This document shows, piece by piece, positions 962-42,262 of a DNA stretch of 63,293 nucleotides. A model generated the notes under the pieces. The model was not told the origin of the DNA, did not search any database, and saw only the letters and a program-made list of their open reading frames with translations. The translations under genes and the position numbers were made by a program. Within the stretch, counting starts at the first letter, position 1. Every line of letters starts with the position of its first letter. The stretch is taken from positions 1 through 63,293 of IMG/VR virus record IMGVR_UViG_3300036980_000702; one strand, 5' to 3'. The DNA is from a virus. Its lineage: Duplodnaviria > Caudoviricetes.

Positions 962-987
962 AAAGGCCTACCGGGAGCCTCAATCCC
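962..987 (+). ncRNA. Repeated H-type pseudoknot motif, copy A (second stem partly degraded)
   Basis: AGGC-cta-CCGGGA-GCCT-caa-TCCC; matches copies at 38601, 39414 and 42239. Confidence 0.6.
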
Positions 988-1070
988 AAAATATGGAGGA
1001 GGTCCTGTACGAGTGGCGACAAAGATTAACCGGAGCCGATCCGGTTTTACAAATTGAAAGGAGACAATCG

Positions 1071-1220
1071 ATGAAAAAATGTAAAAACTGCGACGGTACT
1101 GGACTAGTACTGCGGAAACCCGGATCTATTTATATGTCCTGGGATAACTCTAGGCAACTTAAGGGAGTGGTTGAGAAAAAAGAAACTTGCCCAAAATGTT
1201 ATGGCAAGGGAATGAGGTGA
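1071..1220 (+). CDS. Small zinc-finger protein (DnaJ-type CxxCxGxG repeats)
   Basis: CKNCDGTG...CPKCYGKG; GAAAGGAG RBS favours the ATG at 1071 over 993. Confidence 0.75.
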   Translation: MKKCKNCDGTGLVLRKPGSIYMSWDNSRQLKGVVEKKETCPKCYGKGMR

Positions 1221-1224
1221 TACC

Positions 1225-1539
1225 ATGGACTTAACCGGGATGAAACCAGGGGAAGAACGATATCACAACATAACTCACCCAGTTACTCAAGAGGTTCTAA
1301 GTTGTGAATACATATATATATCCTTTGACGGGAGAATTTACAGGACAATTCATAAGGATCTTCGCACCTGCCGGACCCAGAAAACACGATGGTTGAAAGG
1401 GCAACTTAGACCGGGGGCGGTAGTTCTGTCAATTAGGCTTGAACCGAAAATTAACAAGAAACTAGAGGAAATGGCCGGAAATTTCGATGTTTCGAAATCG
1501 CAGCTTATAAATAGACTGATCGAAAACTTCTCCAGATAG
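1225..1539 (+). CDS. DUF3873-like domain fused to a C-terminal ribbon-helix-helix (RHH) domain
   Basis: N-terminal PGEERY...FDGRIY...CRTQKTRWL; C-terminal LSIRLEPKINKKLEEMA...SKSQLINRLI is RHH-like. Confidence 0.6.
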   Translation: MDLTGMKPGEERYHNITHPVTQEVLSCEYIYISFDGRIYRTIHKDLRTCRTQKTRWLKGQLRPGAVVLSIRLEPKINKKLEEMAGNFDVSKSQLINRLIENFSR

Positions 1540-1557
1540 CTGGAGAAGTTATGTAAT

Positions 1558-1587
1558 AAAAAAAGACCCGGATCACTCCGGGTCATT
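1558..1587. terminator. Intrinsic terminator-like hairpin
   Basis: GACCCGGA-tcac-TCCGGGTC preceded by an A-tract. Confidence 0.75.
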
Positions 1588-1625
1588 TGCCTAAAATAAT
1601 TGTATGACTAATTTTGAAAACGTTA

Positions 1626-1654
1626 TTTACAAAAAAATAAAAATGTGTTAACAT
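1626..1654 (+). promoter_or_regulatory. Sigma-A promoter of the 1.7-4.3 kb cassette
   Basis: TTTACA-17-TAACAT with extended TG. Confidence 0.65.
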
Positions 1655-1687
1655 AAAAACATAAACTATAAAAAGGAGGAGTAAAAA

Positions 1688-1816
1688 ACGGACCTTAAAT
1701 CAATCGGCATTGATTCAAAATTGGTTAATGACCTCAAGAGCAAAGTTGCGCAAAATGGAGAATCCATTAAGGAGGTAGTCGAAAAACTAATCCGTGATTA
1801 TCTTAAAAAAAATTAG
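1688..1816 (+). CDS. 42-aa RHH protein with an ACG start (absent from the ORF track)
   Basis: AGGAGGAG RBS then ACG-DLKSIGIDSKLVNDLKSKVAQNGESIKEVVEKLIRDYLKKN*. Confidence 0.6.
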   Translation, partial: TDLKSIGIDSKLVNDLKSKVAQNGESIKEVVEKLIRDYLKKN

Positions 1817-1835
1817 GAGAGGAGAAAAATTATTA

Positions 1836-3875
1836 ATGGAATTCAAAGATTTTAAAAAATTACTACAAGACAATTTTAGCTCGATTGCTCAAGAAACCAC
1901 CCATTTATTCGAAGTTGAGTTAGACAAGGACGAACTTTGGAACCTGTACTTAGATAGCTTTCCCACCGGAACCAATGAAATTTATCGGGAAAGACGGGAA
2001 CACGATTGTAGTTGCTGTCGGCATTTTATTAAGGCTATCGGCAATGTGGTCGTTATTAAGGACAACACAATTAAAACTATCTGGGATTTTGAAATTGACG
2101 ATCCTGTTTATGCTCCAGTAGTAAAGGCTTTATCGATGTTTGTTAGGACAAAGGTAGTTGCCGATGTTTGGTTTAGCAGAGAGGCTAATGTCGGAACGGA
2201 TAGCAACTATGAGGAGTCAACAGACAAGAGTATTATTCTTTGGCATCACTTTTCTCTAAAGCTTCCGAAGCAGTTTGTTAATAACAGAAGTGAATCTTTG
2301 GGAGAAATTAAAGGTTCCTTCAGAGACACTAGGAACGTGTTTAAGCGCTCCCTGGATGAGATTACCGAGGAAAGTATACTGACGGTACTTGAATTAATAT
2401 CCCAGAATTCCCTTTATAAAGGTGAGGAGTGGAAGGTCGTATTGCTTGAGTTTCTGAAATTCAAACGGGCTTACATGGCTTTACCGTCTGAGCATGAGAA
2501 AGAGAACTACACTTGGGAGCAGTCAGTCAAACTCGGTGGAGCCATGGGCAGAATCAGGAATCACAGTATCGGTACACTCCTGGTTAATATCAGCGAGGAT
2601 ATGGATTTAGATGAAGCAGTTAAGAAGTATGAAGTAATTGTGGCTCCAGAGAATTACAAACGGCCACAGGCCATCTTTACCAAAAAGATGTTGGAGGAAG
2701 CTAAAAAAACTATTGAAGAACTCGGATACCTGGATTCGCTTGGCCGAAGATATGCAACACTAGATGATATTACCGTAAATAATATCTTATTTTCTAATCG
2801 GGATTCAGCGAAACGAATTACCGGGGTCTTTGAAGAAATGGCTGGAGAAGTCGCGATTGACCCGAAGAAGTTTTCTAGGGTTGAAGAAATTTCAGTTGAT
2901 GATTTTTTGAATAATGTTTTGCCGACTGCGAAAGAACTTGAAATATTCCTAGAGAATCGGCACTCAAACAGTATGGTTTCTCTAATTGCACCGGAAAACG
3001 CTGGTACTCCAAGCATGTTTAAATGGAATAATCCTTTCAGTTGGGCGTATGCCGGGAATATTACCGATAGTTCGATGAAAGGGAATGTCAAGATGGCTGG
3101 CGGGAATGTCGAAGGAGTTCTTCGATTCTCGATTCAGTGGAATGACAGTGAATTCAATCCTAACGATTTCGATGCTCACTGCGTTGAGCCCAATTGGTAT
3201 GAGATTTATTACCCCAATAAGATGTCCTTAAGTCCAACAGGTGGAATGCTCGATGTTGATATTATCCGTCCAGTGAAAAGTGTTCCTGCTGTTGAAAATA
3301 TCACTTGGGCCAATACCAAGAAGATGGCAAAAGGTGTCTACCAATTCTTTGTCGAATGTTATTCGAATAATGGTGGACGGTCTGGGTTTAAAGCCGAAAT
3401 CGAATTTGGCGGCCAAATCTATGCCCTTGAATATAACAAGGAATTAAGACAAAAAGAACATGTTCAAGTGGCAGAGGTTACTTTTGACGGTACTAGCTTT
3501 AGTATTGTAGAGAAATTACCGTCTAGCATATCTTCACGAAAAGTGTGGGGATTACAAACCAACCAGTTTGTACCAGTTTCCGTGATGATGTACTCCCCGA
3601 ATTACTGGGACGAACAATGGGATATCGGTCATCGGCACTACTTCTTTATGCTGAAAGGTTGTGTTAATCCGGAAACCCCGAACGGCTTTTATAATGAATT
3701 CTTGAAAGAAGATCTATTGCAACATAAACGAGTCTTTGAGGCACTTGGTAGTAAGATGAGAGTTAAAGATGTCGAGGATCAGTTATCCGGTGTCGGATTC
3801 TCCTCGACCAAGCGAAACGAAGTCTTGGTAAAAGCAAAAGGTCAAACTGAACGAGTAGTCAAAATTAAATTTTAA
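1836..3875 (+). CDS. Large conserved phage protein with a Cys motif and a YfaP/DUF2135-like domain
   Basis: HDCSCCRHFI motif; LRFSIQWND...DFDAHCVEP...GGMLDVD...VENITW; AGGAGAGGAG RBS before the ATG at 1836. Confidence 0.7.
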   Translation: MEFKDFKKLLQDNFSSIAQETTHLFEVELDKDELWNLYLDSFPTGTNEIYRERREHDCSCCRHFIKAIGNVVVIKDNTIKTIWDFEIDDPVYAPVVKALSMFVRTKVVADVWFSREANVGTDSNYEESTDKSIILWHHFSLKLPKQFVNNRSESLGEIKGSFRDTRNVFKRSLDEITEESILTVLELISQNSLYKGEEWKVVLLEFLKFKRAYMALPSEHEKENYTWEQSVKLGGAMGRIRNHSIGTLLVNISEDMDLDEAVKKYEVIVAPENYKRPQAIFTKKMLEEAKKTIEELGYLDSLGRRYATLDDITVNNILFSNRDSAKRITGVFEEMAGEVAIDPKKFSRVEEISVDDFLNNVLPTAKELEIFLENRHSNSMVSLIAPENAGTPSMFKWNNPFSWAYAGNITDSSMKGNVKMAGGNVEGVLRFSIQWNDSEFNPNDFDAHCVEPNWYEIYYPNKMSLSPTGGMLDVDIIRPVKSVPAVENITWANTKKMAKGVYQFFVECYSNNGGRSGFKAEIEFGGQIYALEYNKELRQKEHVQVAEVTFDGTSFSIVEKLPSSISSRKVWGLQTNQFVPVSVMMYSPNYWDEQWDIGHRHYFFMLKGCVNPETPNGFYNEFLKEDLLQHKRVFEALGSKMRVKDVEDQLSGVGFSSTKRNEVLVKAKGQTERVVKIKF

Positions 3876-3890
3876 AGGATGGTGTTACAA

Positions 3891-4265
3891 ATGTTTGAAG
3901 TAGCGGCTAGGAATAAATATCGGTTTCCGTTTAAAGGTCTTATCAATGTTGAGGATTTATGGCAACTGGACGTAAATGATTTAGACATCGTTTTTAAGGC
4001 TTTAAACTCCGAGTTAAAGCAGGTTAAAGAGGAAAGCTTGCTTGAAGTAAAGTCAGAACAGGACAAAGAGCTGGATCTCAAGATTGAAATCGTGAAACAC
4101 ATCGTCAAGGTTAAACTTGATGAGGCCGCCTTACGGTCTAAGCTCAAAGAGAAGAAGGTTCAGGAGCAGAAAATATTAGCGATTATTTCGGGCAAGCAGG
4201 ATGAAAGCTTACAAGGCAAATCGTTGGAAGAATTACAAGCTATGCTGAGTGAATTAGGTAATTAA
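3891..4265 (+). CDS. Coiled-coil partner protein of the upstream gene
   Basis: MFEVAARNKYRFPFKGLINVEDLWQL start, charged helical C-terminus, co-transcribed. Confidence 0.7.
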   Translation: MFEVAARNKYRFPFKGLINVEDLWQLDVNDLDIVFKALNSELKQVKEESLLEVKSEQDKELDLKIEIVKHIVKVKLDEAALRSKLKEKKVQEQKILAIISGKQDESLQGKSLEELQAMLSELGN

Positions 4266-4278
4266 ATACAATTTCACC

Positions 4279-4311
4279 AAGTGACCCGGAGAGATCCGGG
4301 TCACTTCTTTA
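4279..4311. terminator. Terminator between convergent genes
   Basis: AAGTGACCCGGA-gaga-TCCGGGTCACTT followed by T-rich bases. Confidence 0.8.
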
Positions 4312-4488
4312 AGTACCACTTGCCGCCTGAGCGATAAAAACGGCGGTCGCCGCCCCGAGAAACATCCCGATTGCGGTAGTGTCTTTGCCGGCGAAAAAAC
4401 CGATAATCGCAACCAAAAGACAAACTAATCCATATAGACGTTTGGATGATTCAAGGGAACCGGCCATGAGAAAACCTTTTAGGTTCAT
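4309..4488 (-). CDS. Holin-like protein, 59 aa with two TM segments (absent from the ORF track)
   Basis: MNLKGFLMAGSLESSKRLYGLVCLLVAIIGFFAGKDTTAIGMFLGAATAVFIAQAASGT*; GAGGT RBS; lies after the endolysin. Confidence 0.7.
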   Translation of the reverse strand: MNLKGFLMAGSLESSKRLYGLVCLLVAIIGFFAGKDTTAIGMFLGAATAVFIAQAASGT

Positions 4489-4550
4489 GTTATACCTCTT
4501 TCAACACAAAATTCCAGTTTACTATCATTTTGTTGCTGTCAACAAAATGG

Positions 4551-5099
4551 TCAATAATCCAAAATAGCCCTCACAATAGCGTCCTTGTAACCTTCCCGGT
4601 ACTTTTTGAAATTTTCCACATCCGCCGCATTGTCGTGGAAAAACAACTCAATCAAACAGGCCGGGGCGTTGGTCCGGTCTAACTCTGCAAGATGACCGCC
4701 GTCCACCGTGGTCTCTTTGGTATCGGGATCTTCTTTGCCTCCCCTAATCAAAAGACCGTTGGCCTGGTGTAGATACTTTACCAATAGATCGGCCATCCGG
4801 TCGCCGCCGATGCTATCTTTGTGTATCCAGGCTTCCATTCCCCGGGCCTTACCCGATTCCTTCCCGCCCATCGCGTTAGAATGTAAGGCCAAGTGGAAGT
4901 CAGGTTTTGTTTTGTTCGAATCGACGATAACTTCGGTCAAAGTCATATCCGGTCGATTAATATAAATTGCAATTTGTCCTAATCTCGGATCTTTAATGAT
5001 ATCCTTAACCAATTCCTGCATCCTTGATTCTTCGGATACTCCGTCAACCCCGATGTTATTTTCTTGTGTCGATGCCGATAAATAAAGCTTTTTAATCAT
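4551..5099 (-). CDS. Endolysin, N-acetylmuramoyl-L-alanine amidase (Amidase_3)
   Basis: LYLSASTQ...E, ALHSNA, GMEAW and LIELFFHDN motifs; no cell-wall-binding domain. Confidence 0.9.
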   Translation of the reverse strand: MIKKLYLSASTQENNIGVDGVSEESRMQELVKDIIKDPRLGQIAIYINRPDMTLTEVIVDSNKTKPDFHLALHSNAMGGKESGKARGMEAWIHKDSIGGDRMADLLVKYLHQANGLLIRGGKEDPDTKETTVDGGHLAELDRTNAPACLIELFFHDNAADVENFKKYREGYKDAIVRAILDY

Positions 5100-5111
5100 G
5101 GATCCTCCTTA

Positions 5112-5140
5112 TTGCAATTTTTAAAGCAATGGGGTATAAT
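5112..5140 (+). promoter_or_regulatory. Sigma-A promoter antisense to the late operon
   Basis: TTGCAA-17-TATAAT; hairpin ATGCAGTC...GACTGCAT-TTTT about 110 bp downstream. Confidence 0.6.
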
Positions 5141-5547
5141 TATCTTAATTGAATAAAAGCCCCAAGCGAAGCAACTAACTTCGATTGAGGCGCTTCCCAC
5201 TAACCGACTACACCGGTCAATGAGTTTCTTGGCTTATTATAACACATGCAGTCACCTTTTGGGAAGACTGCATTTTTGATTTATCTGTAATCATAAGCAC
5301 ACGTGGGAAAAGACACGCCTGTCGATTGGGGATATAAGCCGGGAACGGGAACTTTATAGTGTTGGATGCTCCAATGCTGGGAAGACTTTTCTTTGCGGGT
5401 TTCTTTTCTTTCTTTTCTCTCTAAGTTCAACCGTTCTTCTCGGCTATTTCTTTCTTTTCAAACTGGTATTAAAGGTCTTAGACGTAACAAAACAACTTAA
5501 ATAGGTTTAATAGACCCAATATTGACAGCAGATCGCAACCCTAAAAA

Positions 5548-5763
5548 TTACCCCTTCATCAACAACGTTATCAAAAAAATGATGATAGTAACCATCGTTC
5601 CAAAAGACCACCTACTGCCCCATTTCAGACTACCTTTTATTTCCTTAATACTATTTTCTAAAAAATTATAACGTTGATCCTGAACCGCTGACGCTGTTTT
5701 CAAATCACTCACTTCCTTTTTTACTTCGTTAAATTCTTCGATTGATACCGTCAAAAAAATCAC
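5548..5763 (-). CDS. XhlA-like lysis membrane protein
   Basis: Coiled coil plus a single C-terminal TM segment, upstream of the amidase. Confidence 0.65.
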   Translation of the reverse strand: MIFLTVSIEEFNEVKKEVSDLKTASAVQDQRYNFLENSIKEIKGSLKWGSRWSFGTMVTIIIFLITLLMKG

Positions 5764-5874
5764 TCCCCTTAAAACGAATCCGTGGAAAAAGTATAATTAA
5801 TTACTGGATGGGTATAATATAAATACATTAAAGCCCTCTTAGCCGATCCACCTCTCGGATCGGTTCTTTTTTGT

Positions 5875-6732
5875 TTAATACCTTATAATATATTTAACCG
5901 CAACCCAGGGCTGAAGGTTATTGTGAGCCGTTCCAAGGCCAGATGAACTTGTAACTGGAGCGCTATATGCACCTGTATCACTTCCTCCGCAAGGCGGACG
6001 TGTTCCACTAGGAGTAGTTGGAGTAGAACCTCTTGGCGGGTACACATGACTATGCGTACCATTCTCGCCGGCTGTTAAAGCGTGGGTTTCTGCGCCGCCG
6101 TTGGCACCAAGGATATCTGCGTTAGGGTCGGTTACGTTATTCGCCGGAGTGCCACCTTCTCCGTAATCGTCCATGCTCAAAAAGACTCTTCCTCTTCCTT
6201 GTGGAGCTAGTAGTATTTTCTTATGCAATGCCCAGTCGGCTTCTGCGCTTGTTAGTCTAGTGCTAAGAACTCCTGCATCCGTATAAATCGGTGCAGTAGT
6301 ATTACTGTAGTCAATCCAGAGTTTCTGGAATAGGTTAAAGCAATCAGCATTGGCCCGGGCTGTTGCATTGCTCGAGGCATCACCAATTGATCTGCCATCT
6401 AACCAGAGCCATGACCCGTAAGCGGGAAGATTTTGCCATGGATGGGTCATAATATGACCAACTTCATAAATCATATTATATATAGCCATTGGTAAATTAG
6501 CATAAATAGCCCCATCGTCTTTTAATTGTATGCTTCCATTTACATTTTGTTCAAGACCATTCCCGACAACATCGGCATTAATTTTTATCTTAGTTACCGA
6601 ATCGTCATTAAGAATTTCCGTAGTCACTGACTTATCGGTTAAATTGTCAGTCCCTACTTTTTTGTTAAACATATCTTGCAGTCTTACCATTACTTCCCTA
6701 ACCGTCGATGCTGCATCATTAAATTTACTCAT
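5875..6732 (-). CDS. Tail fibre protein with a tail-collar domain
   Basis: WLWLDGRSIG...GRGRV...GGAETHALT..E...HSH...AHNNLQPWVAVKYIIRY. Confidence 0.85.
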   Translation of the reverse strand: MSKFNDAASTVREVMVRLQDMFNKKVGTDNLTDKSVTTEILNDDSVTKIKINADVVGNGLEQNVNGSIQLKDDGAIYANLPMAIYNMIYEVGHIMTHPWQNLPAYGSWLWLDGRSIGDASSNATARANADCFNLFQKLWIDYSNTTAPIYTDAGVLSTRLTSAEADWALHKKILLAPQGRGRVFLSMDDYGEGGTPANNVTDPNADILGANGGAETHALTAGENGTHSHVYPPRGSTPTTPSGTRPPCGGSDTGAYSAPVTSSSGLGTAHNNLQPWVAVKYIIRY

Positions 6733-6780
6733 AAATAAACCACCTTTCAAAAATTAAAGGGAGGTTTTTGGCCTCCCTTT

Positions 6781-32880: not shown

Positions 32881-32890
32881 TTTAACCCTC

Positions 32891-35681: not shown

Positions 35682-36186
35682 GAGGGTTTTTTTCTTTTTT
35701 CATAAGCTCAATCGTTGTTAACATAGTGACCAACTCCTCTTTTGAGAGTTTAGAGGGGTCGTATTGTGGTATCAATGGTTGTCCTTCCTTGCCAGTCAGT
35801 TCTCCCCGTGTAGTGGGATCTCCGTTAGATAGTGCTCTCTTGTCATACAGAGTGCCTATATAAATCGCCAGGTCTTTAAGCGAGATGTGCTCTTTAGTTA
35901 TTTGAGCCTCTTCTATCTGTTGTTTAGCAAGTCCCGTGGCTTTAAGTATTGATTCTTCGGCGTTTTTAAGGAACTGACGCTTCCAATCCACCGCCTCTTG
36001 GATAAGTTCTCCTTTTTTTAAGTTACGTAAACCTTCAAATTTATCTTTATTGGCATCTCTAATGCCTTGCACTGTACTAACTCCAATACCAAAAATTCCC
36101 GCTACATGAGTAAGGTTATTATTGGTTGCAAGCTCAATTAAAATTAACTCTCTCATTCTATCGCTGATTTGCTTGCCTTTACCCAT
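35674..36186 (-). CDS. terS: Terminase small subunit
   Basis: N-terminal HTH; ELTGKEGQPL and DPSKLSKEEL C-terminal motifs; upstream of terL. Confidence 0.75.
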   Translation of the reverse strand: MGKGKQISDRMRELILIELATNNNLTHVAGIFGIGVSTVQGIRDANKDKFEGLRNLKKGELIQEAVDWKRQFLKNAEESILKATGLAKQQIEEAQITKEHISLKDLAIYIGTLYDKRALSNGDPTTRGELTGKEGQPLIPQYDPSKLSKEELVTMLTTIELMKKEKNPLI

Positions 36187-36412
36187 AATATCACCCTCTT
36201 TAACTACTACTAATACACCAAAACCCTCATATTAACTCAACCCAAGATCTTAGACCCTCCATGAGTGGGTATCTACGTTTAGACCCACAAAACCACTCAC
36301 AAAAGGCTCTTAGGCCCCCTAATCCCCCACATAACAAAGCCACCTCGTCACCGGGGCGGCCTGTTTGGGTAGATCTCTCCACCACTCATTATAAACGGAT
36401 AGTATCACTTTT

Positions 36413-36919
36413 TCAAGGTGTTTTTAAAATATATTTTTCAGTTCTAATTTTTCTTCCGATGTGACTGTATATAAATTCCAGATCATCTTCGGAAACACCA
36501 TATCGTTTAAGTTTGTCCACAAAAACATACTTGATAAAGGCAATATTGCGCTTTAAAGTTGGTATACTCAGACTTATCGGCACTTTATTTTCTCTTAACG
36601 TTTCCTGAACCAACGAATACTGCATTCTTTGCCTATAATAATAGTGATAAACCTGGCATAAATCCGCCTCATTATGCTCCATCAGCCAAATTATATAATC
36701 GGTCACCATTAGCACTGTCTGGCACCGCTCTATCTGACTGATTTCTCCGTCCAACGGACTTTCAATAAAACCTTGGTCGCCGCCTCTGCCTCCCAACCCG
36801 ACAAGAAACGGTCTAACGGTAGTTCCGTGGTCCAAACAAAGATAGATCAATTTGGCCACATCCTCCAGGTTATAGAGTAGCCAGTCAATTGCCTTTGGTG
36901 TTATCTCCGACGTTTTCAA
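36413..36919 (-). CDS. Putative late-transcription regulator (ArpU/RinA-like)
   Basis: Directly upstream of terS; sigma region-4-like C-terminus. Confidence 0.5.
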   Translation of the reverse strand: MKTSEITPKAIDWLLYNLEDVAKLIYLCLDHGTTVRPFLVGLGGRGGDQGFIESPLDGEISQIERCQTVLMVTDYIIWLMEHNEADLCQVYHYYYRQRMQYSLVQETLRENKVPISLSIPTLKRNIAFIKYVFVDKLKRYGVSEDDLEFIYSHIGRKIRTEKYILKTP

Positions 36920-37401
36920 TCATCGCCTTCCCATATCATAAACTTAACCCGCTTTCTTTTTTTTAAACTCAACCCCAATACTCATTAAATGCTTTACCAG
37001 TTCCTTTTTTGTAAGGTTTTGGTAATAATCTATTGTTTTTGTTACCTGCTGTATCTCCTCCGCCCTCTCGCACATTTTTATATATTCTTGTGTAAAATTC
37101 ATTCTTTACCTCTTTTCTTGATATTTTTTTTCTTGCCTTATTGCCTCCTTAATATCTCCTCGCCCAATTTCTCCATCATCAGAATAATCTTTACTATCAT
37201 GATTTTTCATGAAATCATTACATTCATGACAAAAATATAAGGTGTAAATTGTATTATCAATATTTACAGACGCCTTAGCAATCGAACCTTTTGGTATAAT
37301 TATTTCACATCCAAAACATTCATGTTCTTTCCTAATTTTAACTATTTTTTCACTTAAACATAATGTCATTTTCTTTTTCTCCTCCTTTTTATTCAACTTT
37401 C

Positions 37402-37656
37402 TTAATCCAACGCCTCATCCGGCGGTAATATTTCTGGTTTAGCCGGACCAGTAAAAACGACCGTTGCGTTTAATTTTTTATTATTCTCTTTTTTCCTCTT
37501 TTTCCTCTTTCTTCTCCTCTCTAAACAATCCTCAAGTTCTGAGACGATCTGCGCGTTCATGGTCCGCCGATCCTCCTTGGCTGCCTGTTCGATCCCCCTT
37601 TTAACATTCGCCGGCAGGGAGATAGTTGTCCTCAAAATATCTTCACTTGTCATCAA
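37402..37656 (-). CDS. Arc-family RHH repressor
   Basis: TTISLPANVKRGIEQAAKEDRRTMNAQIV. Confidence 0.8.
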   Translation of the reverse strand: MMTSEDILRTTISLPANVKRGIEQAAKEDRRTMNAQIVSELEDCLERRRKRKKRKKENNKKLNATVVFTGPAKPEILPPDEALD

Positions 37657-37729
37657 AAATCATCACCTCGCCATTAATTATACTCCTTTCGCCCCTACAA
37701 ATCAACAAAAAATAATTTGAAAAAGGTAG

Positions 37730-37758
37730 TTGACAATACCCCGGTAGTGTGGTATCAT
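37730..37758 (+). promoter_or_regulatory. Repeated cassette promoter, copy 1
   Basis: TTGACAATACCCCGGTAGTGTGGTATCAT. Confidence 0.85.
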
Positions 37759-37791
37759 AAATTATAAATTAAATTTGAGGGGGAGAAAACA

Positions 37792-38592
37792 ATGGCAAAC
37801 CAAATAGTAGCAAAGCAAATCCATCCCAACGAGAGTGCAATCTTACACAGTATCAGTTACGACGCCGGAACGGATTGCGGACCGGCAGCGGGAATGAAAT
37901 TGACAGGCGGACGCCCAACCATTAATAATGGTCAAAAGGTTGTATTGTTTGACCAAAAGATTAAAGGCCAACGAATGGGACTCAAGTACGAAACCCGACC
38001 GGAACTAGCCGCCCTAGTGGCCGAATGGGAGGCCATCGAAGCCGAAAAACAGGCCAAAAGGGAATTTGAGTGGAAAATTAAACGCTTGGCGGAAGAAACT
38101 ATCGATATCCCTTTGGTAGCGGCCATGAATACCGAGGCCGACAGATTACGGGGACTCATTCCCCGAGAAAATATCGAAGTGACTATTACTCAAACCGGAG
38201 ATCTTGACGGTGACCCGATCCTTAAATATGAGGTAGACGGATTTGAGATTAGTTGGAGTGATGTAACTGTACATGGTTGGGCAACTGCGATTCGCCCCGG
38301 AGCAATGGGAGCATTTAAATCGGTTTGCGTAGCCTCTATTAATCTTGCAAAGCTGGCCGAACTTATGACGGCCAGGGATGAGGCTGAAAAAGCGGAGATT
38401 GAAGCCACCCAGAAAGCGGAGGAGGAGAAAATCCGGAAGTTCGAAACTGCCAAAACTACTGGTGAAAAAGTCCTCCTCCGTAAATGGACGGCTGATTGTA
38501 ACGACCACCGCGAGGAATGCAACGTGGACATAATTACCGAATGGGCAATGCCAGATGGCACAACCAAGACCGAACGGCAGCACACCTGGTAA
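37792..38592 (+). CDS. Accessory hypothetical protein
   Basis: GAGGGGGAG RBS; C-terminal KFETAKTTGEKVLL...EECNVD...AMPDGT..TERQHTW domain. Confidence 0.8.
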   Translation: MANQIVAKQIHPNESAILHSISYDAGTDCGPAAGMKLTGGRPTINNGQKVVLFDQKIKGQRMGLKYETRPELAALVAEWEAIEAEKQAKREFEWKIKRLAEETIDIPLVAAMNTEADRLRGLIPRENIEVTITQTGDLDGDPILKYEVDGFEISWSDVTVHGWATAIRPGAMGAFKSVCVASINLAKLAELMTARDEAEKAEIEATQKAEEEKIRKFETAKTTGEKVLLRKWTADCNDHREECNVDIITEWAMPDGTTKTERQHTW

Positions 38593-38600
38593 ACACTCAA

Positions 38601-38627
38601 AGGCCCACCGGGAGCCTCAATTCCGGT
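38601..38627 (+). ncRNA. Repeated H-type pseudoknot motif, copy B
   Basis: AGGC-cca-CCGGGA-GCCT-caa-TTCCGG. Confidence 0.65.
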
Positions 38628-38653
38628 AAAAAATAAAAAAACGGAGGAAAAAA

Positions 38654-38938
38654 ATGAAAAAATACGATTGGCAAACCATTCAGATTTGGAACGGTTCGGA
38701 TGATAGAACAAAACTCGTATGTTGTGATTCGCCCCATCAATACACCCAAAAGGATATTATCGAGGCTTTGGCAGAATTTAGACAGACAAACGGCATGGGT
38801 GGTTGGTTTTTCGATTTTGACGGTAGAAAACACGAAGATCCCGCCGATGCCTCTACATGGGGACCTAAATCGCCCAATGAAATTAATTGGGCTGGTTTTC
38901 CTGTTTTTAAAGATGGCGAGTGGGTTTTGTCTGAATAG
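38654..38938 (+). CDS. Accessory hypothetical protein
   Basis: GGAGG RBS, 94 aa. Confidence 0.7.
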   Translation: MKKYDWQTIQIWNGSDDRTKLVCCDSPHQYTQKDIIEALAEFRQTNGMGGWFFDFDGRKHEDPADASTWGPKSPNEINWAGFPVFKDGEWVLSE

Positions 38939-39033
38939 TCGGCGTAGGAATCGTGCGGGGGCGCAAGCCCCACCCTAAGAAGGGGATTAGGAAAGGGAGA
39001 GTTGATAAATGGATTCCGGAGGAGGGAAAGTAA

Positions 39034-39198
39034 ATGAACAAGGCGGGAAAAGTTGATTTTGAACAATATTTTTACACTTTCTTTAGTTGGTCATCTTTGG
39101 ATTTTAATAGAAATTACAGGCATATAAAAACATTATACCTCAAAGATTACTTAAATTATTGTAAATCAATCGACCAAGAACCCGTTAGAGCAAGATAA
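39034..39198 (+). CDS. 54-aa accessory protein (absent from the ORF track)
   Basis: GGAGGAGGG RBS; MNKAGKVDFEQYF... Confidence 0.55.
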   Translation: MNKAGKVDFEQYFYTFFSWSSLDFNRNYRHIKTLYLKDYLNYCKSIDQEPVRAR

Positions 39199-39233
39199 CC
39201 GACATCTAACCGGAAAAAAGGAGGGAAAACAGG

Positions 39234-39359
39234 ATGGTACATATGGTAAAATTTCTTCGATATTGGGATAACAACGGACAACACGACCGAATTTTTTCCC
39301 AAGAGTTGTTGGAAAAACTTCAGAAAATCAAATGTAGGTATATTACTTGGTCAATGTAA
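39234..39359 (+). CDS. 41-aa accessory protein (absent from the ORF track)
   Basis: AAGGAGG RBS; MVHMVKFLRYWDNNG... Confidence 0.5.
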   Translation: MVHMVKFLRYWDNNGQHDRIFSQELLEKLQKIKCRYITWSM

Positions 39360-39413
39360 AGTTGCGGAACTGGGTTGGTAAAAATCGAATGAGGCACACT
39401 TGGTAGTATTCAA

Positions 39414-39439
39414 AGGCCCACCGGGAGCCTCAATCCCGG
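39414..39439 (+). ncRNA. Repeated H-type pseudoknot motif, copy C
   Basis: AGGC-cca-CCGGGA-GCCT-caa-TCCCGG. Confidence 0.65.
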
Positions 39440-39463
39440 CTTAAGGAAAGGATAGTGCTGGGA

Positions 39464-39619
39464 ATGACACTCCGAGAAGCAGAAAAATATTTAGCCGATG
39501 TAGCTATGAATGGGATTAAATCCGCTAGTAATACTGATAAAGAAGAAATTTTACTTCGAAAAGAACTTGGCTTAGATATGGAATCAGTAAGGGCATTCGC
39601 TAAACAACATATGTTTTAA
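39464..39619 (+). CDS. 51-aa accessory protein (absent from the ORF track)
   Basis: MTLREAEKYLADVAMNG...; purine-rich RBS. Confidence 0.5.
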   Translation: MTLREAEKYLADVAMNGIKSASNTDKEEILLRKELGLDMESVRAFAKQHMF

Positions 39620-39634
39620 AATAAAAAAGTTCTC

Positions 39635-39686
39635 TTCCTTTTCCTTTTTATCTCCCCGCAGGAGGGATAAATTAGCGAAGGAGGAT
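39635..39686 (+). repeat. 52-bp cassette-head repeat (hairpin plus RBS), copy 1
   Basis: 51 of 52 bases identical to 41406-41457. Confidence 0.9.
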
Positions 39687-39691
39687 TGACG

Positions 39692-39868
39692 ATGATAAGA
39701 ATACAATACCAGACTGACGGCGATTATCCGTGCCTTGTAACACAAGGTGCTGATAGCGTAGAGGACGCCGAGAGACTGATTAAAGTTCTTAAGGCGGCCG
39801 ATGAAGCGCACGGTCATCAAACTCGACGTTATATAATTATTAAAACCAAGGAGGATCACAATGCCTAA
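39692..39868 (+). CDS. Cassette cargo protein
   Basis: AAGGAGG RBS inside the repeat. Confidence 0.65.
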   Translation: MIRIQYQTDGDYPCLVTQGADSVEDAERLIKVLKAADEAHGHQTRRYIIIKTKEDHNA

Positions 39869-40091
39869 ATCAAACGACCGCCAACAACTACAGATCTGGT
39901 TTGTCGGCGGGGAACAAATGAAAATGAAAAGAAACCTAGATTTGGAATCCTTTAATACCGGGGTTCCGCGAGGGGAAATCATCCGGGAATCAATTTCTAT
40001 CCGCAACTACATCAAAAAAATATTGGACGAAGAATCATCTCTAGCAGAAAAAACCCTGCTAGACCTGGTAAAAAAACATTTTGAAAAATAG
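39861..40091 (+). CDS. RHH-like regulator, paralog 1 (MPK...KKHFEK)
   Basis: Paralog of 41951-42181; beta strand then helices (RQQLQIWF...GEIIRESI). Confidence 0.65.
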   Translation: MPKSNDRQQLQIWFVGGEQMKMKRNLDLESFNTGVPRGEIIRESISIRNYIKKILDEESSLAEKTLLDLVKKHFEK

Positions 40092-40092
40092 A

Positions 40093-40121
40093 TTAACAAT
40101 ACCGCGGTAGTGTGGTATCAT
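40093..40121 (+). promoter_or_regulatory. Repeated cassette promoter, copy 2
   Basis: TTAACAATACCGCGGTAGTGTGGTATCAT; contains the palindrome TACCGCGGTA. Confidence 0.8.
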
Positions 40122-40172
40122 TGAAAATGTCAGACGGGGACGCCGCCTGAACAAACGAGGAGGTAAGCAAAA

Positions 40173-40634
40173 ATGACAAACGAAATTTACAAAACCATCA
40201 AAATAAAGGGAATCAAGGTGGAATGCATCGATGAAACAGACGGATTCACGCTGGATATTAATGACCAAAAATACTACTATGACAACATTTCAATGGGAAT
40301 TGATAAGATCATTAACGGAGAAAAATATTTTCACACTATCGAGGAAATTATGTCAGTAACTAACTTCGATCTCCCGGAAACCTACCACCTTACCAGCGGC
40401 GGCTGGTCAGAGAAAATCACCGCCAAAAACATCCAAGAGGCTCGGGACATAGCTGATAATAGAATCGGCTACAACCAGGAAGACATGAAAGACATGAATA
40501 TTCTTGATGAAGACGGCAATCTGATTTGTTACCGGTATTGGAGCCAAACTTTGGGAGGTTTGGAGGATCAAGAGGACGCAATCGAATATGGTACTTTTGG
40601 ATACTACACCGATTGGACGGACGCAGGGGCCTAA
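40173..40634 (+). CDS. Acidic accessory protein
   Basis: GAGGAGG RBS, 153 aa. Confidence 0.75.
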   Translation: MTNEIYKTIKIKGIKVECIDETDGFTLDINDQKYYYDNISMGIDKIINGEKYFHTIEEIMSVTNFDLPETYHLTSGGWSEKITAKNIQEARDIADNRIGYNQEDMKDMNILDEDGNLICYRYWSQTLGGLEDQEDAIEYGTFGYYTDWTDAGA

Positions 40635-40642
40635 TCGCCCCA

Positions 40643-40693
40643 CCCTCTCCCGCAAAGCGGGACTGATGAGCCGGATGATTCCCGGCGAAAGGG
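40643..40693 (+). ncRNA. Hammerhead ribozyme (type III)
   Basis: CCC-UC / stem I UCCCGC-aaa-GCGGGA / CUGAUGA / stem II GCCGG-augauuc-CCGGC / GAAA-GGG; the catalytic core is complete. Confidence 0.9.
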
Positions 40694-40714
40694 AAAAATT
40701 AGGAGGAAAGAAAA

Positions 40715-41239
40715 ATGTTAACAGAATTAATTTCCCCGACACACAAAACCCCATACGTTTTAGATTATATCCTTTCAAAAGGTTTAATCCGGTCGGGATT
40801 GACCGGAACAATCCGGATCGAACTTAAACACACTTGTTTTTACGGCAGTAAAGATTTTTACGTATATGTGGAAAACCTATCTTGTTCGGAAAGCCACTGG
40901 ACTGATTCCGTAAATTTTAGGATTGATGGAATCATTCCGATGCATGCAACCGAAGCCGGAAAACTATCATATGGGTTTGGTTGCGGATGTGATACTAGTC
41001 ACGGAGACCAATTTCCATCCGAAGCCCCTCCGGATAATCCGGGTTGGGACGATTATAAAAAATATGATGGCGAAGGATCTGTTGTAAAATGCTGGATAGA
41101 TTCCGCCCACATAGAGATAGACATTAGCCAAATCCCAAGTGGCGATCCCGCATTAGGAATAATTACAGTATTAATCGAGACTTTGTTGGCCAGGCAATGC
41201 TTCTCAGAGGAGGTAAAGAAAGATGGGAAAATGTCATGA
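40715..41239 (+). CDS. Accessory hypothetical protein
   Basis: AGGAGG RBS just downstream of the hammerhead. Confidence 0.7.
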   Translation: MLTELISPTHKTPYVLDYILSKGLIRSGLTGTIRIELKHTCFYGSKDFYVYVENLSCSESHWTDSVNFRIDGIIPMHATEAGKLSYGFGCGCDTSHGDQFPSEAPPDNPGWDDYKKYDGEGSVVKCWIDSAHIEIDISQIPSGDPALGIITVLIETLLARQCFSEEVKKDGKMS

Positions 41240-41396
41240 ATGTCTCAAAAAAGAATTAGATGAGTTGGAAACATTTAAAGAACATGAGTGCATTAATTGT
41301 GGTGAAGTTTATTATGGAAATGATTCTAATTTTTGTGATTCTTTTTGTAAAGAAGAATATAAAATTATGGAGGAAACGGCGAGAGAGTGTGTTTAA
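41223..41396 (+). CDS. 57-aa Cys-rich protein (absent from the ORF track)
   Basis: GAGGAGG RBS; MGKCHEC...CINCG...FCDSFC. Confidence 0.65.
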   Translation: MGKCHECLKKELDELETFKEHECINCGEVYYGNDSNFCDSFCKEEYKIMEETARECV

Positions 41397-41405
41397 AAAC
41401 ATTTT

Positions 41406-41457
41406 TTCCTTTTCCTTTTTATCTCCCCGCAGGAGGGATAAATTAGCAAAGGAGGAT
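41406..41457 (+). repeat. 52-bp cassette-head repeat, copy 2
   Basis: 51 of 52 bases identical to 39635-39686. Confidence 0.9.
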
Positions 41458-41461
41458 CGTC

Positions 41462-41938
41462 ATGAAAACGGGATATGTAAACCCCAAACTGCTTGCAAAA
41501 AGAGACCAATTAATTTTACAAGTAGAAACACTCAATCGGAAATTACATGGCGGAGCCACTGCGGAAGTGGCCAAATATTTCCATTTAGGGATGGTGGGTG
41601 GATCTGGAAAACCAGTACAGAAATTAAACCGGGTCAGGTCTCAGGAGATTGATCGCCGGATTGATGGTGCCGTCTTGGCTGTCAATCTCCAAAAAGAACT
41701 TAATTATGTCGAATTTCAAATCCGATATCAGGAAACTGCCCCACTGAGGGCCGCAATAAAAGATGCGGCAGTTGAAAAATTGGGGAGTCTATTTGATACT
41801 ATCGAAGTTGGAGATCAAATTGATATTGGCGGGAATTGTCCATTTACCGTGATTAAGAAAAATAGAAAAACAGTTGTTACGGAATCTGGAAGCAAATGGA
41901 CTGCGGCGGAAATTTTTAAGGTAATTAAAAAATCTTAA
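41462..41938 (+). CDS. Cassette cargo protein with an SH3-like C-terminus
   Basis: IEVGDQIDIGG...VIKKNRKTVVTESG. Confidence 0.7.
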   Translation: MKTGYVNPKLLAKRDQLILQVETLNRKLHGGATAEVAKYFHLGMVGGSGKPVQKLNRVRSQEIDRRIDGAVLAVNLQKELNYVEFQIRYQETAPLRAAIKDAAVEKLGSLFDTIEVGDQIDIGGNCPFTVIKKNRKTVVTESGSKWTAAEIFKVIKKS

Positions 41939-41950
41939 AGGAGGATCGCA

Positions 41951-42181
41951 ATGCCTAAAAAAATAGTAGACCCCAACCGCCAGCAATACAATATTTGGTT
42001 TGTGGGGGAAGATCAAATCAAACAAAAACGGGCGTTAGAGCTTGAAACATTCCAAACCGGGATCCCCATGGCTGAAAATATCCGAGAGGCAATTGCAATT
42101 CGGGCTTATCTCAAAGATTTTTTTGGGGACGAAACCGTAATTCCCCTGCTAGATCTAGTAAAAAAACATTTTGAAAAATAG
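41951..42181 (+). CDS. RHH-like regulator, paralog 2 (MPK...KKHFEK)
   Basis: Paralog of 39861-40091. Confidence 0.65.
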   Translation: MPKKIVDPNRQQYNIWFVGEDQIKQKRALELETFQTGIPMAENIREAIAIRAYLKDFFGDETVIPLLDLVKKHFEK

Positions 42182-42182
42182 A

Positions 42183-42211
42183 TTGACAATACCCCGGTAG
42201 TGTGGTATTAT
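42183..42211 (+). promoter_or_regulatory. Repeated cassette promoter, copy 3
   Basis: TTGACAATACCCCGGTAGTGTGGTATTAT. Confidence 0.85.
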
Positions 42212-42238
42212 AAGATATAAGATAAAAATGTAAACATA

Positions 42239-42262
42239 AGGCCCACCGGGAGCCTATCCCGG
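42239..42262 (+). ncRNA. Repeated H-type pseudoknot motif, copy D
   Basis: AGGC-cca-CCGGGA-GCCT-a-TCCCGG. Confidence 0.65.

What the first reader, a model, noticed from the sequence alone, without database searches (positions are those of the whole stretch)
962..42262. Four copies of a compact H-type pseudoknot just upstream of ribosome-binding sites
Seen: AGGC-c(c/t)a-CCGGGA-GCCT-(caa/a)-T(C/T)CCGG at 964, 38601, 39414 and 42239. Stem 1 (AGGC/GCCT) and stem 2 (CCGGGA/TCCCGG) cross. In B-D, variation is confined to a loop length or a G-U wobble; copy A has lost part of stem 2. All four are intergenic, on the sense strand, a few to ~15 nt before an SD-like sequence. I cannot assign a named family. 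Inference: a block to 5'->3' RNase J decay, a processing site, a translation element, or a recombination handle for cassette shuffling.
Basis: partly seen in the sequence, partly recalled or inferred. Interest (0 to 1): 0.75.

Follow-up and report, generated by a model that had tools for sequence, protein, structure and literature searches.

The report
Tiny conserved RNA pseudoknot between phage genes
The four repeats are real copies of a 24-35-base knotted RNA fold, absent from the RNA family catalogue, that many unrelated phages place between genes, in leaders and once just before a tRNA, probably to shield the RNA behind it, though its function is untested.

Summary
The window is a complete 63.3-kb phage genome. 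It holds exactly four copies of the motif, all on the + strand. All lie in the two short + strand gene blocks, which are driven by four near-identical sigma-70-like promoters.

The motif is not private to this phage. The same fold recurs in dozens of unrelated viral and metagenome contigs (34-66% G+C). It also occurs in isolates: Synechococcus phage S-H1, Brevundimonas phages Delta and BabaJaga, Mycobacterium phage DyoEdafos and Microbacterium phage Zooman.

On 48 sequences, 6 of 10 base pairs change on both sides and 96.9% of cells pair. No shuffle (0 of 500) reaches these values. Both crossing stems are therefore supported, stem 1 more thinly than stem 2.

Typical placement is about 6 nt after a stop codon and about 26 nt before the next ATG. 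It also follows promoters directly, and once ends 6 nt before a tRNA.

Rfam 15 has no match. It fails the defining features of coremin, preQ1-I and frameshift pseudoknots.

Best reading, inferred only: a portable, mechanically stable boundary element that shields or insulates downstream RNA. The scan's earlier notes describe similar tiny phage pseudoknots on other DNA; none matched this one by sequence.

The parts
964..989 (+). Copy A: AGGC CTA CCGGGA GCCT CAA TCCCAA. Degenerate, with only 4 of 6 stem-2 pairs left. It lies between ORF 620-946 and the gene starting at 1071.
   Evidence: (38.2 bits)
38601..38626 (+). Copy B: AGGC CCA CCGGGA GCCT CAA TTCCGG, with one G-U pair in stem 2. It lies 8 nt after the TAA of ORF 37792-38592 and 27 nt before ATG 38654.
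   Evidence: (45.1 bits)
39414..39439 (+). Copy C: consensus AGGC CCA CCGGGA GCCT CAA TCCCGG. It lies 24 nt before ATG 39464. It is preceded by a 12-nt copy of the end of ORF 37792-38592 (39394-39405).
   Evidence: (46.3 bits)
42239..42262 (+). Copy D: AGGC CCA CCGGGA GCCT A TCCCGG, with a 1-nt loop 3. It sits in the leader, about 27 nt after the -10 box of promoter-like site 42183-42211 and 21 nt before ATG 42284.
   Evidence: (43.7 bits)
1014..1046 (+). Possible fifth, divergent copy (low confidence): TGGC - 10-13 nt - (AA)CCGGA GCCG A TCCGG(TT). Its hairpin resembles the 5-bp stem-2 variant of phage S-H1. It ends 24 nt before ATG 1071.
   Evidence: hairpin in centroid; 11.1 bits, E about 1.2: not significant
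990..1003 (+). AATATGGAGGAGGT flank, shared 14 of 14 with copy D (42263-42276). In A no start codon follows it.
42263..42276 (+). AATATGGAGGAGGT flank of copy D. It contains the SD for ATG 42284.
38580..38591 (+). GCACACCTGGTA, the end of ORF 37792-38592. It is repeated at 39394-39405 before copy C with 11 of 12 bases identical.
559..587 (+). Promoter-like site P1 (TTGACA-17-TATTAT with TG) heading the block that holds copy A.
   Evidence: repeat family D11
37730..37758 (+). Promoter-like site P2 heading the block that holds copies B and C.
   Evidence: D3
40093..40121 (+). Promoter-like site P3. Its leader carries no copy of the motif.
   Evidence: D3
42183..42211 (+). Promoter-like site P4, directly upstream of copy D.
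   Evidence: D3
1071..1220 (+). Gene downstream of A: a 49-aa CxxCxGxG zinc-ribbon protein.
38654..38938 (+). Gene downstream of B: 94 aa, no family.
39464..39619 (+). Gene downstream of C: 51 aa, no family.
42284..42550 (+). Gene downstream of D: 88 aa, no family.

Best explanation
SHOWN:
- The four sites are copies of a compact H-type RNA pseudoknot that acts on the sense transcript.
- Its layout is stem 1 NGGC/GCCN (3-4 bp), loop 1 of 3 nt (usually C-N-A), stem 2 CCGGGA/UCCCGG (5-7 bp) with no linker to stem 1, and loop 3 of 1-9 nt that ends in A in 46 of 48 sequences.
- It is a family of its own, spread through unrelated tailed phages of hosts from several phyla.
- It lies in intercistronic spacers, in leaders right after promoters, and before tRNA genes.

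INFERRED:
- It works in cis as a portable boundary element of RNA.
- The two stems stack into about one helical turn, clamped by the two crossing loops, giving a small and mechanically stable block.
- This block stays folded next to a terminating ribosome.
- It shields whatever RNA lies downstream (a cistron or a tRNA precursor) from attack that starts at or travels from the 5' side. That means 5'->3' exonuclease of the RNase J type, or 5'-end-dependent endonucleases.
- It also keeps the following ribosome-binding site free of pairing with upstream sequence.
- Because it is self-contained, it travels with gene cassettes, and its copies become recombination joints.
For: Structure:
- On 48 context-picked sequences, 96.9% of cells pair, against 89.6% in shuffles.
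- 6 of 10 pairs change on both sides, in 19 cells. 0 of 500 shuffles reach any of these measures.
- Sliding the partners by 1-3 columns drops pairing to 18-52%.
- The variants came from scans that freed two pairs at a time without requiring complementarity.
- Further variants came from model searches of whole records.
- S-H1 has a copy in which stem 2 is shortened by one pair on both sides.
- Mismatches at the outer pair of stem 1 cluster where loop 3 is 1 nt: 6 of 12 against 2 of 36, Fisher p = 0.0016. This is as expected if one nucleotide cannot span 4 bp.

RNA rather than DNA:
- G-U pairs occur in B, L015 and L134a.
- 14 of 14 copies in six long records are sense to the flanking genes.

Generic function, not specific to one gene:
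- The downstream genes are unrelated ORFans.
- Three consecutive spacers of L101 each carry a copy.
- G001 has 5 copies.
- At the orthologous slot of 52 related loci, only 3 of about 35 distinct upstream regions carry it. Several of the others show a plain hairpin there by eye.

Not tied to translation:
- The DyoEdafos copy ends 6 nt before tRNA-Trp in a gap without a convincing ORF.
- L123, L126 and L128 lie 123-187 nt from the next ORF.

Not tied to an upstream ORF:
- D, L015 and L016 follow promoter-like sites.
- RNA downstream is the one thing present in every context.

No phage-encoded partner found:
- No protein family is shared by the six motif-bearing genomes at blastp 1e-4.
Against: - Nothing here measures decay, 5' ends or stalling, and no RNA run was available.
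- Published work read here says ordinary frameshifting pseudoknots do not stop Xrn1 (PMC10321173, abstract and section 3). A small H-type knot is therefore not a proven exonuclease block.
- Strong sequence conservation (GGC, GGGA, GCC, UCCC nearly fixed) is more than a mere roadblock seems to need. It could instead mean a specific partner.
- Support for stem 1 is thin. Only the outer pair covaries often (AU 34, CG 5, UA 1, unpaired 8). One inner-pair flip comes from a weak hit (15.7 bits), and one (L016b) needs a shifted register.
- Placement about 6 nt after stop codons (30 of 47 within 4-9 nt) would also suit a 3'-end protector or a termination-linked role.
- The alignment is built from pattern hits that fix most positions, so 'invariant' columns are partly by construction.
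Confidence: 0.42

Rival explanations
1. Translation-initiation element. The knot docks on the 30S platform, or simply insulates the ribosome-binding site, and so raises or standardises initiation at the start codon about 26 nt downstream.
For: - The distance from motif end to the first ATG-ORF has a median of 26.5 nt, and 31 of 46 lie within 13-31 nt.
- The intervening leaders are unstructured, either A-rich with an SD or C/A-rich without one.
- The motif is present in SD-using and SD-less contexts alike, as expected of a partner as universal as the ribosome.
Against: - DyoEdafos carries it 6 nt before a tRNA.
- L123, L126 and L128 lie 123-187 nt from the next ORF, and L015, L117 and Delta lie 51-67 nt away.
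- The typical spacing is also what genome compaction plus a free ribosome-binding site would give.
- The strict full-consensus pattern found only 2 hits (1 convincing) in one genome each of 185,579 species. That is odd for a general ribosome enhancer.
Confidence: 0.2
2. Operator or aptamer. The knot binds a specific trans-acting factor, either a conserved host protein, a phage protein or a small ligand, and thereby regulates the downstream gene.
For: - Sequence conservation is unusually high across phages of 34-66% G+C.
- The A's at the ends of loops 1 and 3 flanking stem 2 are conserved.
- Stem 2 holds an SD-like GGGAG paired to an anti-SD-like UCCC. In nested folds of B and C, the 3' strand of stem 2 can instead pair with the downstream SD or start region.
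- Precedent: Aca1 and Aca2 proteins bind RNA motifs in leaders of phage anti-defence operons (PMC13551039, passages read).
Against: - No protein family is shared among six motif-bearing genomes (blastp only).
- The downstream genes are unrelated.
- There is no linker between the stems to form a pocket.
- There is no terminator or conserved expression platform.
- SD-less leaders offer nothing for the alternative pairing.
- No Rfam riboswitch matches at E <= 10.
Confidence: 0.13
3. Termination-linked ribosome device or 3'-end protector. Placed at the mRNA entry channel when the stop codon is in the A site, the knot either modulates termination, read-through or re-initiation, or protects the upstream cistron from 3'->5' exonucleases after cleavage.
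For: - The stop-to-motif distance has a median of 6 nt, and 30 of 47 lie within 4-9 nt.
- This is the spacer range recalled for frameshift and read-through stimulators.
- The coremin element stalls ribosomes and promotes frameshifting in vitro (PMC10321173 abstract; PMC10520033 abstract).
Against: - D, L015 and L016 follow promoters with no ORF upstream.
- DyoEdafos has only a 21-codon ORF upstream.
- No slippery heptamer is conserved, and the reading frame through the knot varies (read by eye).
- All three stop codons are used.
Confidence: 0.1
4. DNA-level site. The repeat is a recombination or cassette-exchange handle (or a protein-binding DNA site), and the apparent RNA fold is incidental.
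For: - B and C share an upstream flank, with a remnant of the preceding ORF's last codons. A and D share 14 of 14 nt downstream.
- The distribution among relatives is sporadic and module-like.
Against: - Compensatory changes keep pairing while the sequence changes.
- G-U pairs would be A-C mismatches on the other strand.
- Loop 3 varies from 1 to 9 nt.
- Orientation is always sense.
- Homologous recombination needs no such fold.
Confidence: 0.05

Closest known systems
Coremin motif (xrRNA-C) and its Watson-Crick variant in beny-, cucumo- and other eukaryotic RNA viruses (PMC10321173: outline, sections 3 and 14 read; PMC10520033: passages read; PMC6546385: listing only)
   Same: Both are very small H-type pseudoknots with a roughly 4-bp first stem and an A-containing second loop. 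Both are portable, occur in UTRs and intergenic regions of viruses, and are highly conserved in sequence. Coremin is proposed or shown to block a 5'->3' exonuclease and ribosomes.
   Different: Coremin has a GUC/GAC hairpin with a YGAD or YGNNAD loop, a 1-nt loop 1, a 3-bp stem 2, a spacer with CUAC, and a required second hairpin directly downstream. The phage motif has none of these sequences. It has a 3-nt loop 1, a 5-7-bp stem 2, no linker and no obligatory second hairpin. Its hosts are bacteria, which lack Xrn1.
Luteovirus-type minimal frameshifting pseudoknots (BWYV, PLRV), as described in PMC10321173 section 3
   Same: Both are compact, at about 26-28 nt, with two short stacked stems. 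The loops probably lie in the grooves. Both sit 5-9 nt downstream of the codon in the ribosomal A site.
   Different: Here the upstream codon is a stop codon, not a slippery heptamer. There are no overlapping frames. The motif also occurs after promoters and before a tRNA.
T4/T2 gene 32 translational operator pseudoknot (recalled; mentioned in PMC10690425, passage read)
   Same: Both are phage H-type pseudoknots at the 5' side of an unstructured leader, some tens of nt before the start codon.
   Different: The gene 32 knot is tied to one autoregulated gene (SSB) and its protein. The present motif precedes unrelated ORFans, capsid-like genes and a tRNA, and it recurs several times per genome.
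5' mRNA stabilisers of bacteria and phages (5'-terminal stem-loops such as ompA; STAB-SD of cryIIIA; SP82 early-RNA stabiliser). All are recalled, and none was read here.
   Same: All are cis elements in leaders that impede attack from the 5' end, and they are portable between genes.
   Different: The known ones are simple hairpins or ribosome-binding SD-like runs, and they are not a conserved pseudoknot family. Copy A and D's GGAGGAGG flank is only reminiscent of STAB-SD.
Structured 'punctuation' of phage operons (T7 RNase III sites, recalled; clustered hammerhead ribozymes in phage operons, PMC3088659, listing only)
   Same: Both are repeated small structured RNAs placed in successive spacers of operons of small genes.
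   Different: No ribozyme core or long duplex is present, and no Rfam ribozyme lies in the same slots of the relatives examined.

Membership tests
H-type RNA pseudoknot (structural class) | Two helices whose strands interleave, each supported by conservation of pairing | tested here: met
   Helix 2: 98.6% of cells paired and 4 of 6 pairs with changes on both sides. Helix 1: 94.3% paired and 2 of 4 pairs with changes on both sides (one from a weak hit). 0 of 500 shuffles reach the observed values.
Any Rfam 15 family | Match to a curated covariance model | tested here: not met
   The gathering search of the window finds only 2 tRNAs. At E <= 10, the copy D region gives 0 matches, and the copy C region gives only sok (15.6 bits against a gathering score of 59) and c4-a1b1 (8.9 against 46.7).
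Coremin / xrRNA-C | First hairpin closed on a YGAD (or YGNNAD) loop with a GUC/GAC top | tested here: not met
   The loop closed by stem 1 is 9 nt, CNACCGGGA. Its second base is C, T, A or G. The feature is taken from PMC10520033 passages and PMC10321173 section 3.
Coremin / xrRNA-C | Conserved 8-10 nt spacer containing CUAC | tested here: not met
   Loop 3 is 1-9 nt, ends in A (46 of 48), and contains no CUAC.
Coremin / xrRNA-C | Second hairpin directly after the spacer | tested here: not met
   Copies B-D are followed by A-rich or SD sequence. No hairpin starts right after stem 2 in the folds.
Coremin / xrRNA-C | Stalls a 5'->3' exoribonuclease in vitro | not testable with these tools
   Needs an enzyme assay.
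preQ1-I and other pseudoknot riboswitches | Match to the family model; association with genes of the ligand's pathway; an expression platform | tested here: not met
   There is no Rfam match. The downstream genes are unrelated ORFans. No terminator-like site lies on the + strand at the copies.
-1 frameshift stimulatory pseudoknot | Slippery heptamer 5-9 nt upstream and an overlapping -1 frame | tested here: not met
   The upstream element is a stop codon (TAA, TAG or TGA) and no common heptamer is present (read by eye).
T4 gene 32-type operator | Lies in the leader of the gene for the protein that binds it (SSB) | tested here: not met
   None of the four downstream proteins has an SSB or other nucleic-acid-binding family match apart from a zinc ribbon.
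Intrinsic terminator | G+C-rich hairpin followed by a U run on the transcribed strand | tested here: not met
   No + strand terminator-like site lies at any copy. The only site at 42255-42239 is on the - strand. Look-alikes L121 and perhaps L019 are terminator-like and were kept apart.
Solitary CRISPR-repeat mimic (RNA anti-CRISPR; recalled) | Same sequence occurs as tandem repeats of CRISPR arrays in host genomes | tested here: not met
   The full motif pattern hits only 2 contigs, once each, in 185,579 species genomes.

The most novel reading that the evidence does not exclude
This is a prokaryotic-virus counterpart of exoribonuclease-resistant RNAs: a 24-35-nt knot that phages of Firmicutes-like hosts, cyanobacteria, actinobacteria and alphaproteobacteria use to stop RNase J-type 5'->3' decay (and perhaps ribosomes). 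It would cut long transcripts into individually protected gene- or tRNA-sized units. It would be the smallest natural RNA roadblock known, and the first in bacteria.
Probability: 0.3. Interest if true: 0.85.

Novelty: new variant of a known kind. Interest (0 to 1): 0.62.

Why it matters
A fold of only about 26 nt is kept almost letter for letter in phages whose hosts span several phyla. It has real covariation in both stems and is absent from Rfam. That makes it one of the smallest conserved structured RNAs seen.

If it protects or insulates RNA, three things follow:
- It explains how phages keep arrays of tiny shuffled genes expressed.
- It gives a first handle on exonuclease-resistant RNA in bacteria.
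- It offers a very short portable part for stabilising or insulating synthetic operons.

It occurs in culturable systems: S-H1 with Synechococcus WH 7803, Delta with Brevundimonas, and DyoEdafos with M. smegmatis. The question is therefore directly testable.

Tried and rejected
- **Rfam.** The gathering and E <= 10 searches gave nothing relevant.
- **Phage genome similarity.** Megablast of both + strand blocks against 50,697 phage records found no match.
- **Nested folding.** Folds of the four sites gave z-scores of -0.2 to -1.4. This is uninformative, because the program cannot form pseudoknots.
- **Expression data.** No RNA holder was listed, only one DNA run that may be the source.
- **Orthologous-site covariation.** I took the 65-aa gene downstream of the motif in the L006 and L009 contigs. 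Only 3 of about 35 distinct upstream regions have the motif, so this gave distribution rather than covariation.
- **Shared phage protein.** None was found at blastp 1e-4 among six genomes. Remote homology was not tried.
- **RNase J distribution.** The control genomes of a family search do not say which genomes pass the cut-off, so the result is unusable.
- **Hits rejected as chance or another element.** L010, L014 and L017 (doubtful). L018 (antisense inside a 666-aa ORF). L119/L120 and L137 (inside long ORFs). L020-L027, L153, L158 and L159. L121 (13-bp terminator-like hairpin). The Klebsiella phage F4M1D hit (5' half only, antisense). Seventeen of the 38 metagenome hits, in G+C-rich open frames. 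L113 (perfect motif, but inside a 477-codon open frame) was left undecided.
- **Literature.** A search for the core sequence found one unrelated paper. Word searches for phage pseudoknot motifs or stabilisers found nothing on this motif. The 10,006 candidate viral RNAs of PMC10690425 are listed only in supplements I could not open, so the motif may be among them.
- **The scan's earlier notes.** Sequence look-ups gave nothing, and there were no notes for this genome.


Full report
**1. The observation**

The window is a complete viral record of 63,293 bp with 127-bp direct terminal repeats.

The 17-nt core AGGCCNACCGGGAGCCT occurs four times, at 964, 38601, 39414 and 42239. All four are on the + strand. 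Allowing 3 mismatches adds none. Chance expectation is 0.16, and 0 of 100 shuffles reach four.

Covariance models built later from the wider family find the same four sites at 37-46 bits and nothing else above 11 bits on either strand.

- stem 1: AGGC/GCCT
- loop 1: C-N-A
- stem 2: CCGGGA/TCCCGG, directly abutting stem 1
- loop 3: CAA (A, B, C) or A (D)
- B has one G-U pair, and A has lost the two outer pairs of stem 2.

**2. Setting in the phage**

Genes on the + strand form only two short blocks, about 620-4265 and 37792-42716. The rest of the genome reads on the - strand, including terminase, a major-head-like protein, and tail and replication genes.

The + blocks are headed by four near-identical promoter-like sites of the form TTGACA/TTAACA-17-TG-TATYAT. 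They lie at 559-587, 37730-37758, 40093-40121 and 42183-42211.

Position of each copy:
- D lies in the leader right after the fourth promoter.
- A and B follow the first gene of their blocks.
- C lies three small genes after B.

The proteins encoded downstream are small and have no shared family. They are a 49-aa zinc ribbon and ORFans of 94, 51 and 88 aa.

Copy A's GGAGGAGG has no start codon behind it. The gene there most likely starts at ATG 1071, with its own SD.

A hairpin at 1028-1046 looks like the stem-2 half of the motif and ends 24 nt before that ATG. It does not score significantly (11.1 bits).

**3. The motif is a widespread family**

Exact core in viral contigs: it occurs in 11 contigs. 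In 9 of the 11, the complement of stem 2 (TCCCGG, once TCTCGG) follows 1-6 nt after the core, although the search did not ask for it. These 9 represent 5 distinct contexts.

Full pattern with loop 1 partly freed, in metagenomes: it gave 38 loci.
- 20 lie between same-strand ORFs, in contigs of 34-66% G+C.
- 1 is perfect but sits inside a long open frame.
- 17 sit in G+C-rich open frames and were set aside.

One genome each of 185,579 prokaryote species: the strict pattern hits only 2 contigs. One is convincing, a 4-kb, 34% G+C contig filed under an archaeal MAG.

Isolates carrying the motif:
- Synechococcus phage S-H1 has three copies.
- Brevundimonas phages Delta and BabaJaga carry it.
- Mycobacterium phage DyoEdafos carries it.
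- Microbacterium phage Zooman carries it.

Copy number:
- G001, a 77-kb record, has five copies, all on one strand and in one region of small genes.
- L101 has one in each of three successive spacers.
- L134, L105, L016 and G004 have two each.

**4. Is it an RNA structure?**

I freed two base pairs at a time, on both sides, in exact-pattern scans of viral contigs, without asking for complementarity.

Stem 2 results:
- Outer pairs: ACGGGA/TCCCGT, TGGGGA/TCCCCA and CGGGGA/TCCCCG, plus one variant with an end mismatch. All are intergenic.
- Pairs 3 and 4: one complementary intergenic variant, CCGCGA/TCGCGG (L019, which may also serve as a terminator). The other new hits were non-complementary (one complementary) and lay in or antisense to coding sequence.
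- Pairs 5 and 6: only two chance-like hits appeared.

Stem 1 results:
- Outer pair: a large CGGC/GCCG group with at least 10 contexts, one TGGC/GCCA, and two mismatched members.
- Inner pairs: no clean compensatory member. L118 has one broken pair.

Model searches of whole records added more divergent copies:
- CCCGGA/TCCGGG four times in G001.
- GCGGGA/TCCCGC in the Brevundimonas phages and in DyoEdafos.
- A 5-bp CCGGA/TCCGG in S-H1.
- A weak S-H1 copy with stem 1 CGC/GCG.
- L016b, which fits stem 1 only as AGCC/GGCT with a 2-nt loop 1.

Counts on the 48-sequence alignment:
- 96.9% of cells pair, against 89.6% in shuffles.
- 6 of 10 pairs change on both sides.
- 0 of 500 shuffles reach any measure.
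- Shifted partners pair in only 18-52% of cells.

Support differs between the stems:
- Stem 2 is strongly supported, with 4 of 6 pairs covarying.
- Stem 1 rests mainly on its outer pair (AU 34, CG 5, UA 1, unpaired 8).
- The unpaired cases are concentrated where loop 3 is a single nucleotide: 6 of 12 against 2 of 36, p = 0.0016. This is what the geometry of a pseudoknot predicts.

Caveat: most columns were fixed by the search patterns, so their invariance is partly by construction.

The following point to RNA rather than DNA:
- G-U pairs are present.
- Loop 3 varies in length.
- Orientation is strictly sense, in 14 of 14 copies across six long records.

**5. Where it sits**

Over the 48 sequences:
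- The nearest upstream stop codon of an ORF of at least 40 codons lies a median of 6 nt before the motif. 30 of 47 lie within 4-9 nt.
- The first ATG-ORF lies a median of 26.5 nt after it. 31 of 46 lie within 13-31 nt.

Neither neighbour is obligatory:
- D, L015 and L016 follow promoter-like sites.
- L123, L126 and L128 lie 123-187 nt before capsid-like genes.
- The DyoEdafos copy sits in a tRNA cluster, 6 nt before tRNA-Trp, with only a 21-codon ORF upstream.
- G003 has a tRNA 225 nt downstream.

Downstream genes are unrelated.

At the orthologous slot in 52 relatives of one contig group, only 3 of about 35 distinct upstream regions have the motif. Several of the others show an ordinary hairpin there by eye.

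Six motif-bearing genomes share no protein family at blastp 1e-4.

**6. What it most likely does**

Every context shares only two things: a sense transcript, and RNA downstream.

The element is self-contained, very stable on paper (10 stacked pairs, 8 of them G-C), and interchangeable with hairpins. It is placed about as close to the stop codon and the ribosome-binding site as a structure can be without being unwound or getting in the way.

I therefore read it as a portable RNA boundary element. It would shield downstream RNA from attack that starts at the 5' side, and it would insulate the next ribosome-binding site.

This is inference, and no decay or end-mapping data exist here.

Rivals are a translation-initiation aid, a specific operator or aptamer (favoured by the strong sequence conservation), a termination-linked device or 3' protector, and a DNA-level recombination handle.

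The last has real support only as a by-product. B and C share GCACAC(C/T)TGGTA upstream, with a remnant of the preceding ORF's last codons. A and D share AATATGGAGGAGGT downstream.

**7. Comparison with known things**

Rfam 15 has no match.

Earlier notes of this scan pointed me to the coremin Xrn1-resistant motif of plant viruses. I read its description (PMC10321173, sections 3 and 14; PMC10520033, passages). The defining features are absent here: the YGAD loop on a GUC/GAC hairpin, the CUAC spacer and the second hairpin. The motif may work like coremin, but it is not a member.

It also fails the features of preQ1-I, frameshift knots, the gene 32 operator, intrinsic terminators and CRISPR-repeat mimics.

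Those earlier notes describe other tiny pseudoknots in phage spacers. None matched this sequence, so I treat this as a separate family of the same general kind.

Whether it is among the 10,006 unnamed candidates of PMC10690425 could not be checked, because the supplements were closed.

**8. Verdict**

This is a real, conserved and uncatalogued phage RNA pseudoknot. The structure is well supported, with stem 1 less so than stem 2. The function is unknown, and a protective or insulating boundary role is the best guess (0.42).

Noticed in passing
window 39624-39686 and 41395-41457: A second intergenic repeat of 63 nt, 92% identical between copies. It has a pyrimidine run, then a bulged hairpin (TTATCTCCC-CGCA-GGAGGGATAA), then an SD, and sits just before genes 39686-39868 and 41462-41938. 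Other spacers of the same blocks thus carry a different stable structure.
   Followed up: partly
window 39861-40091 and 41951-42181, with 40054-40121 and 42144-42211: Two paralogous 76-aa genes, both ending LLDLVKKHFEK. Each is followed by a copy of the promoter repeat (93% identical over 68 nt). This suggests a segmental duplication inside the early block.
   Followed up: no
window 1028-1046: The hairpin AACCGGA-GCCGA-TCCGGTT resembles the stem-2 half of the motif and lies 24 nt before ATG 1071. With TGGC at 1014-1017 it could form a long-loop variant of the knot.
   Followed up: partly
window 993-1073 and 42265-42286: In A and D an ATG sits inside the shared flank (AATATGGAGGAGG). In D it opens a 5-codon mini-ORF (MEEVR) whose stop overlaps the real start (TAGATG). 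In A it is in frame with the gene that probably starts at 1071.
   Followed up: no
window 38950-38975: A GC-rich hairpin with a GCAA tetraloop (GTGCGGGGGC GCAA GCCCCAC) lies in the spacer after gene 38654-38938.
   Followed up: no
window 42754-42772: A two-way terminator-like hairpin (AGCCCGGTTAATCCGGGCT) lies between the convergent + block and the - strand genes.
   Followed up: no
window 62795-62975 (-): Two adjacent tRNA genes lie near the right end, and the record ends in a 127-bp direct terminal repeat (1-127 = 63167-63293).
   Followed up: no
window 1794-3875: A 693-aa protein matches phrog_1735 over its full length (E 1.5e-269), a widespread phage family of unknown function. It lies in the same + block as copy A.
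   Followed up: no
L185 1460-1707 (record G002): A HEARO RNA (RF02033, 97.3 bits) lies in another motif-bearing viral record.
   Followed up: no
L118 about 141-170 (-) and record G001 75234-75263: Two independent motif copies precede genes whose products look like pentapeptide-repeat proteins, judged by eye only (for example ADLREADLSGA in L118).
   Followed up: no
L197 530-1029 (Microbacterium phage Zooman): About 500 nt after the motif carry no annotated gene, no tRNA call and no Rfam match, yet they contain a T-loop-like GGTTTCGAATAC.
   Followed up: partly
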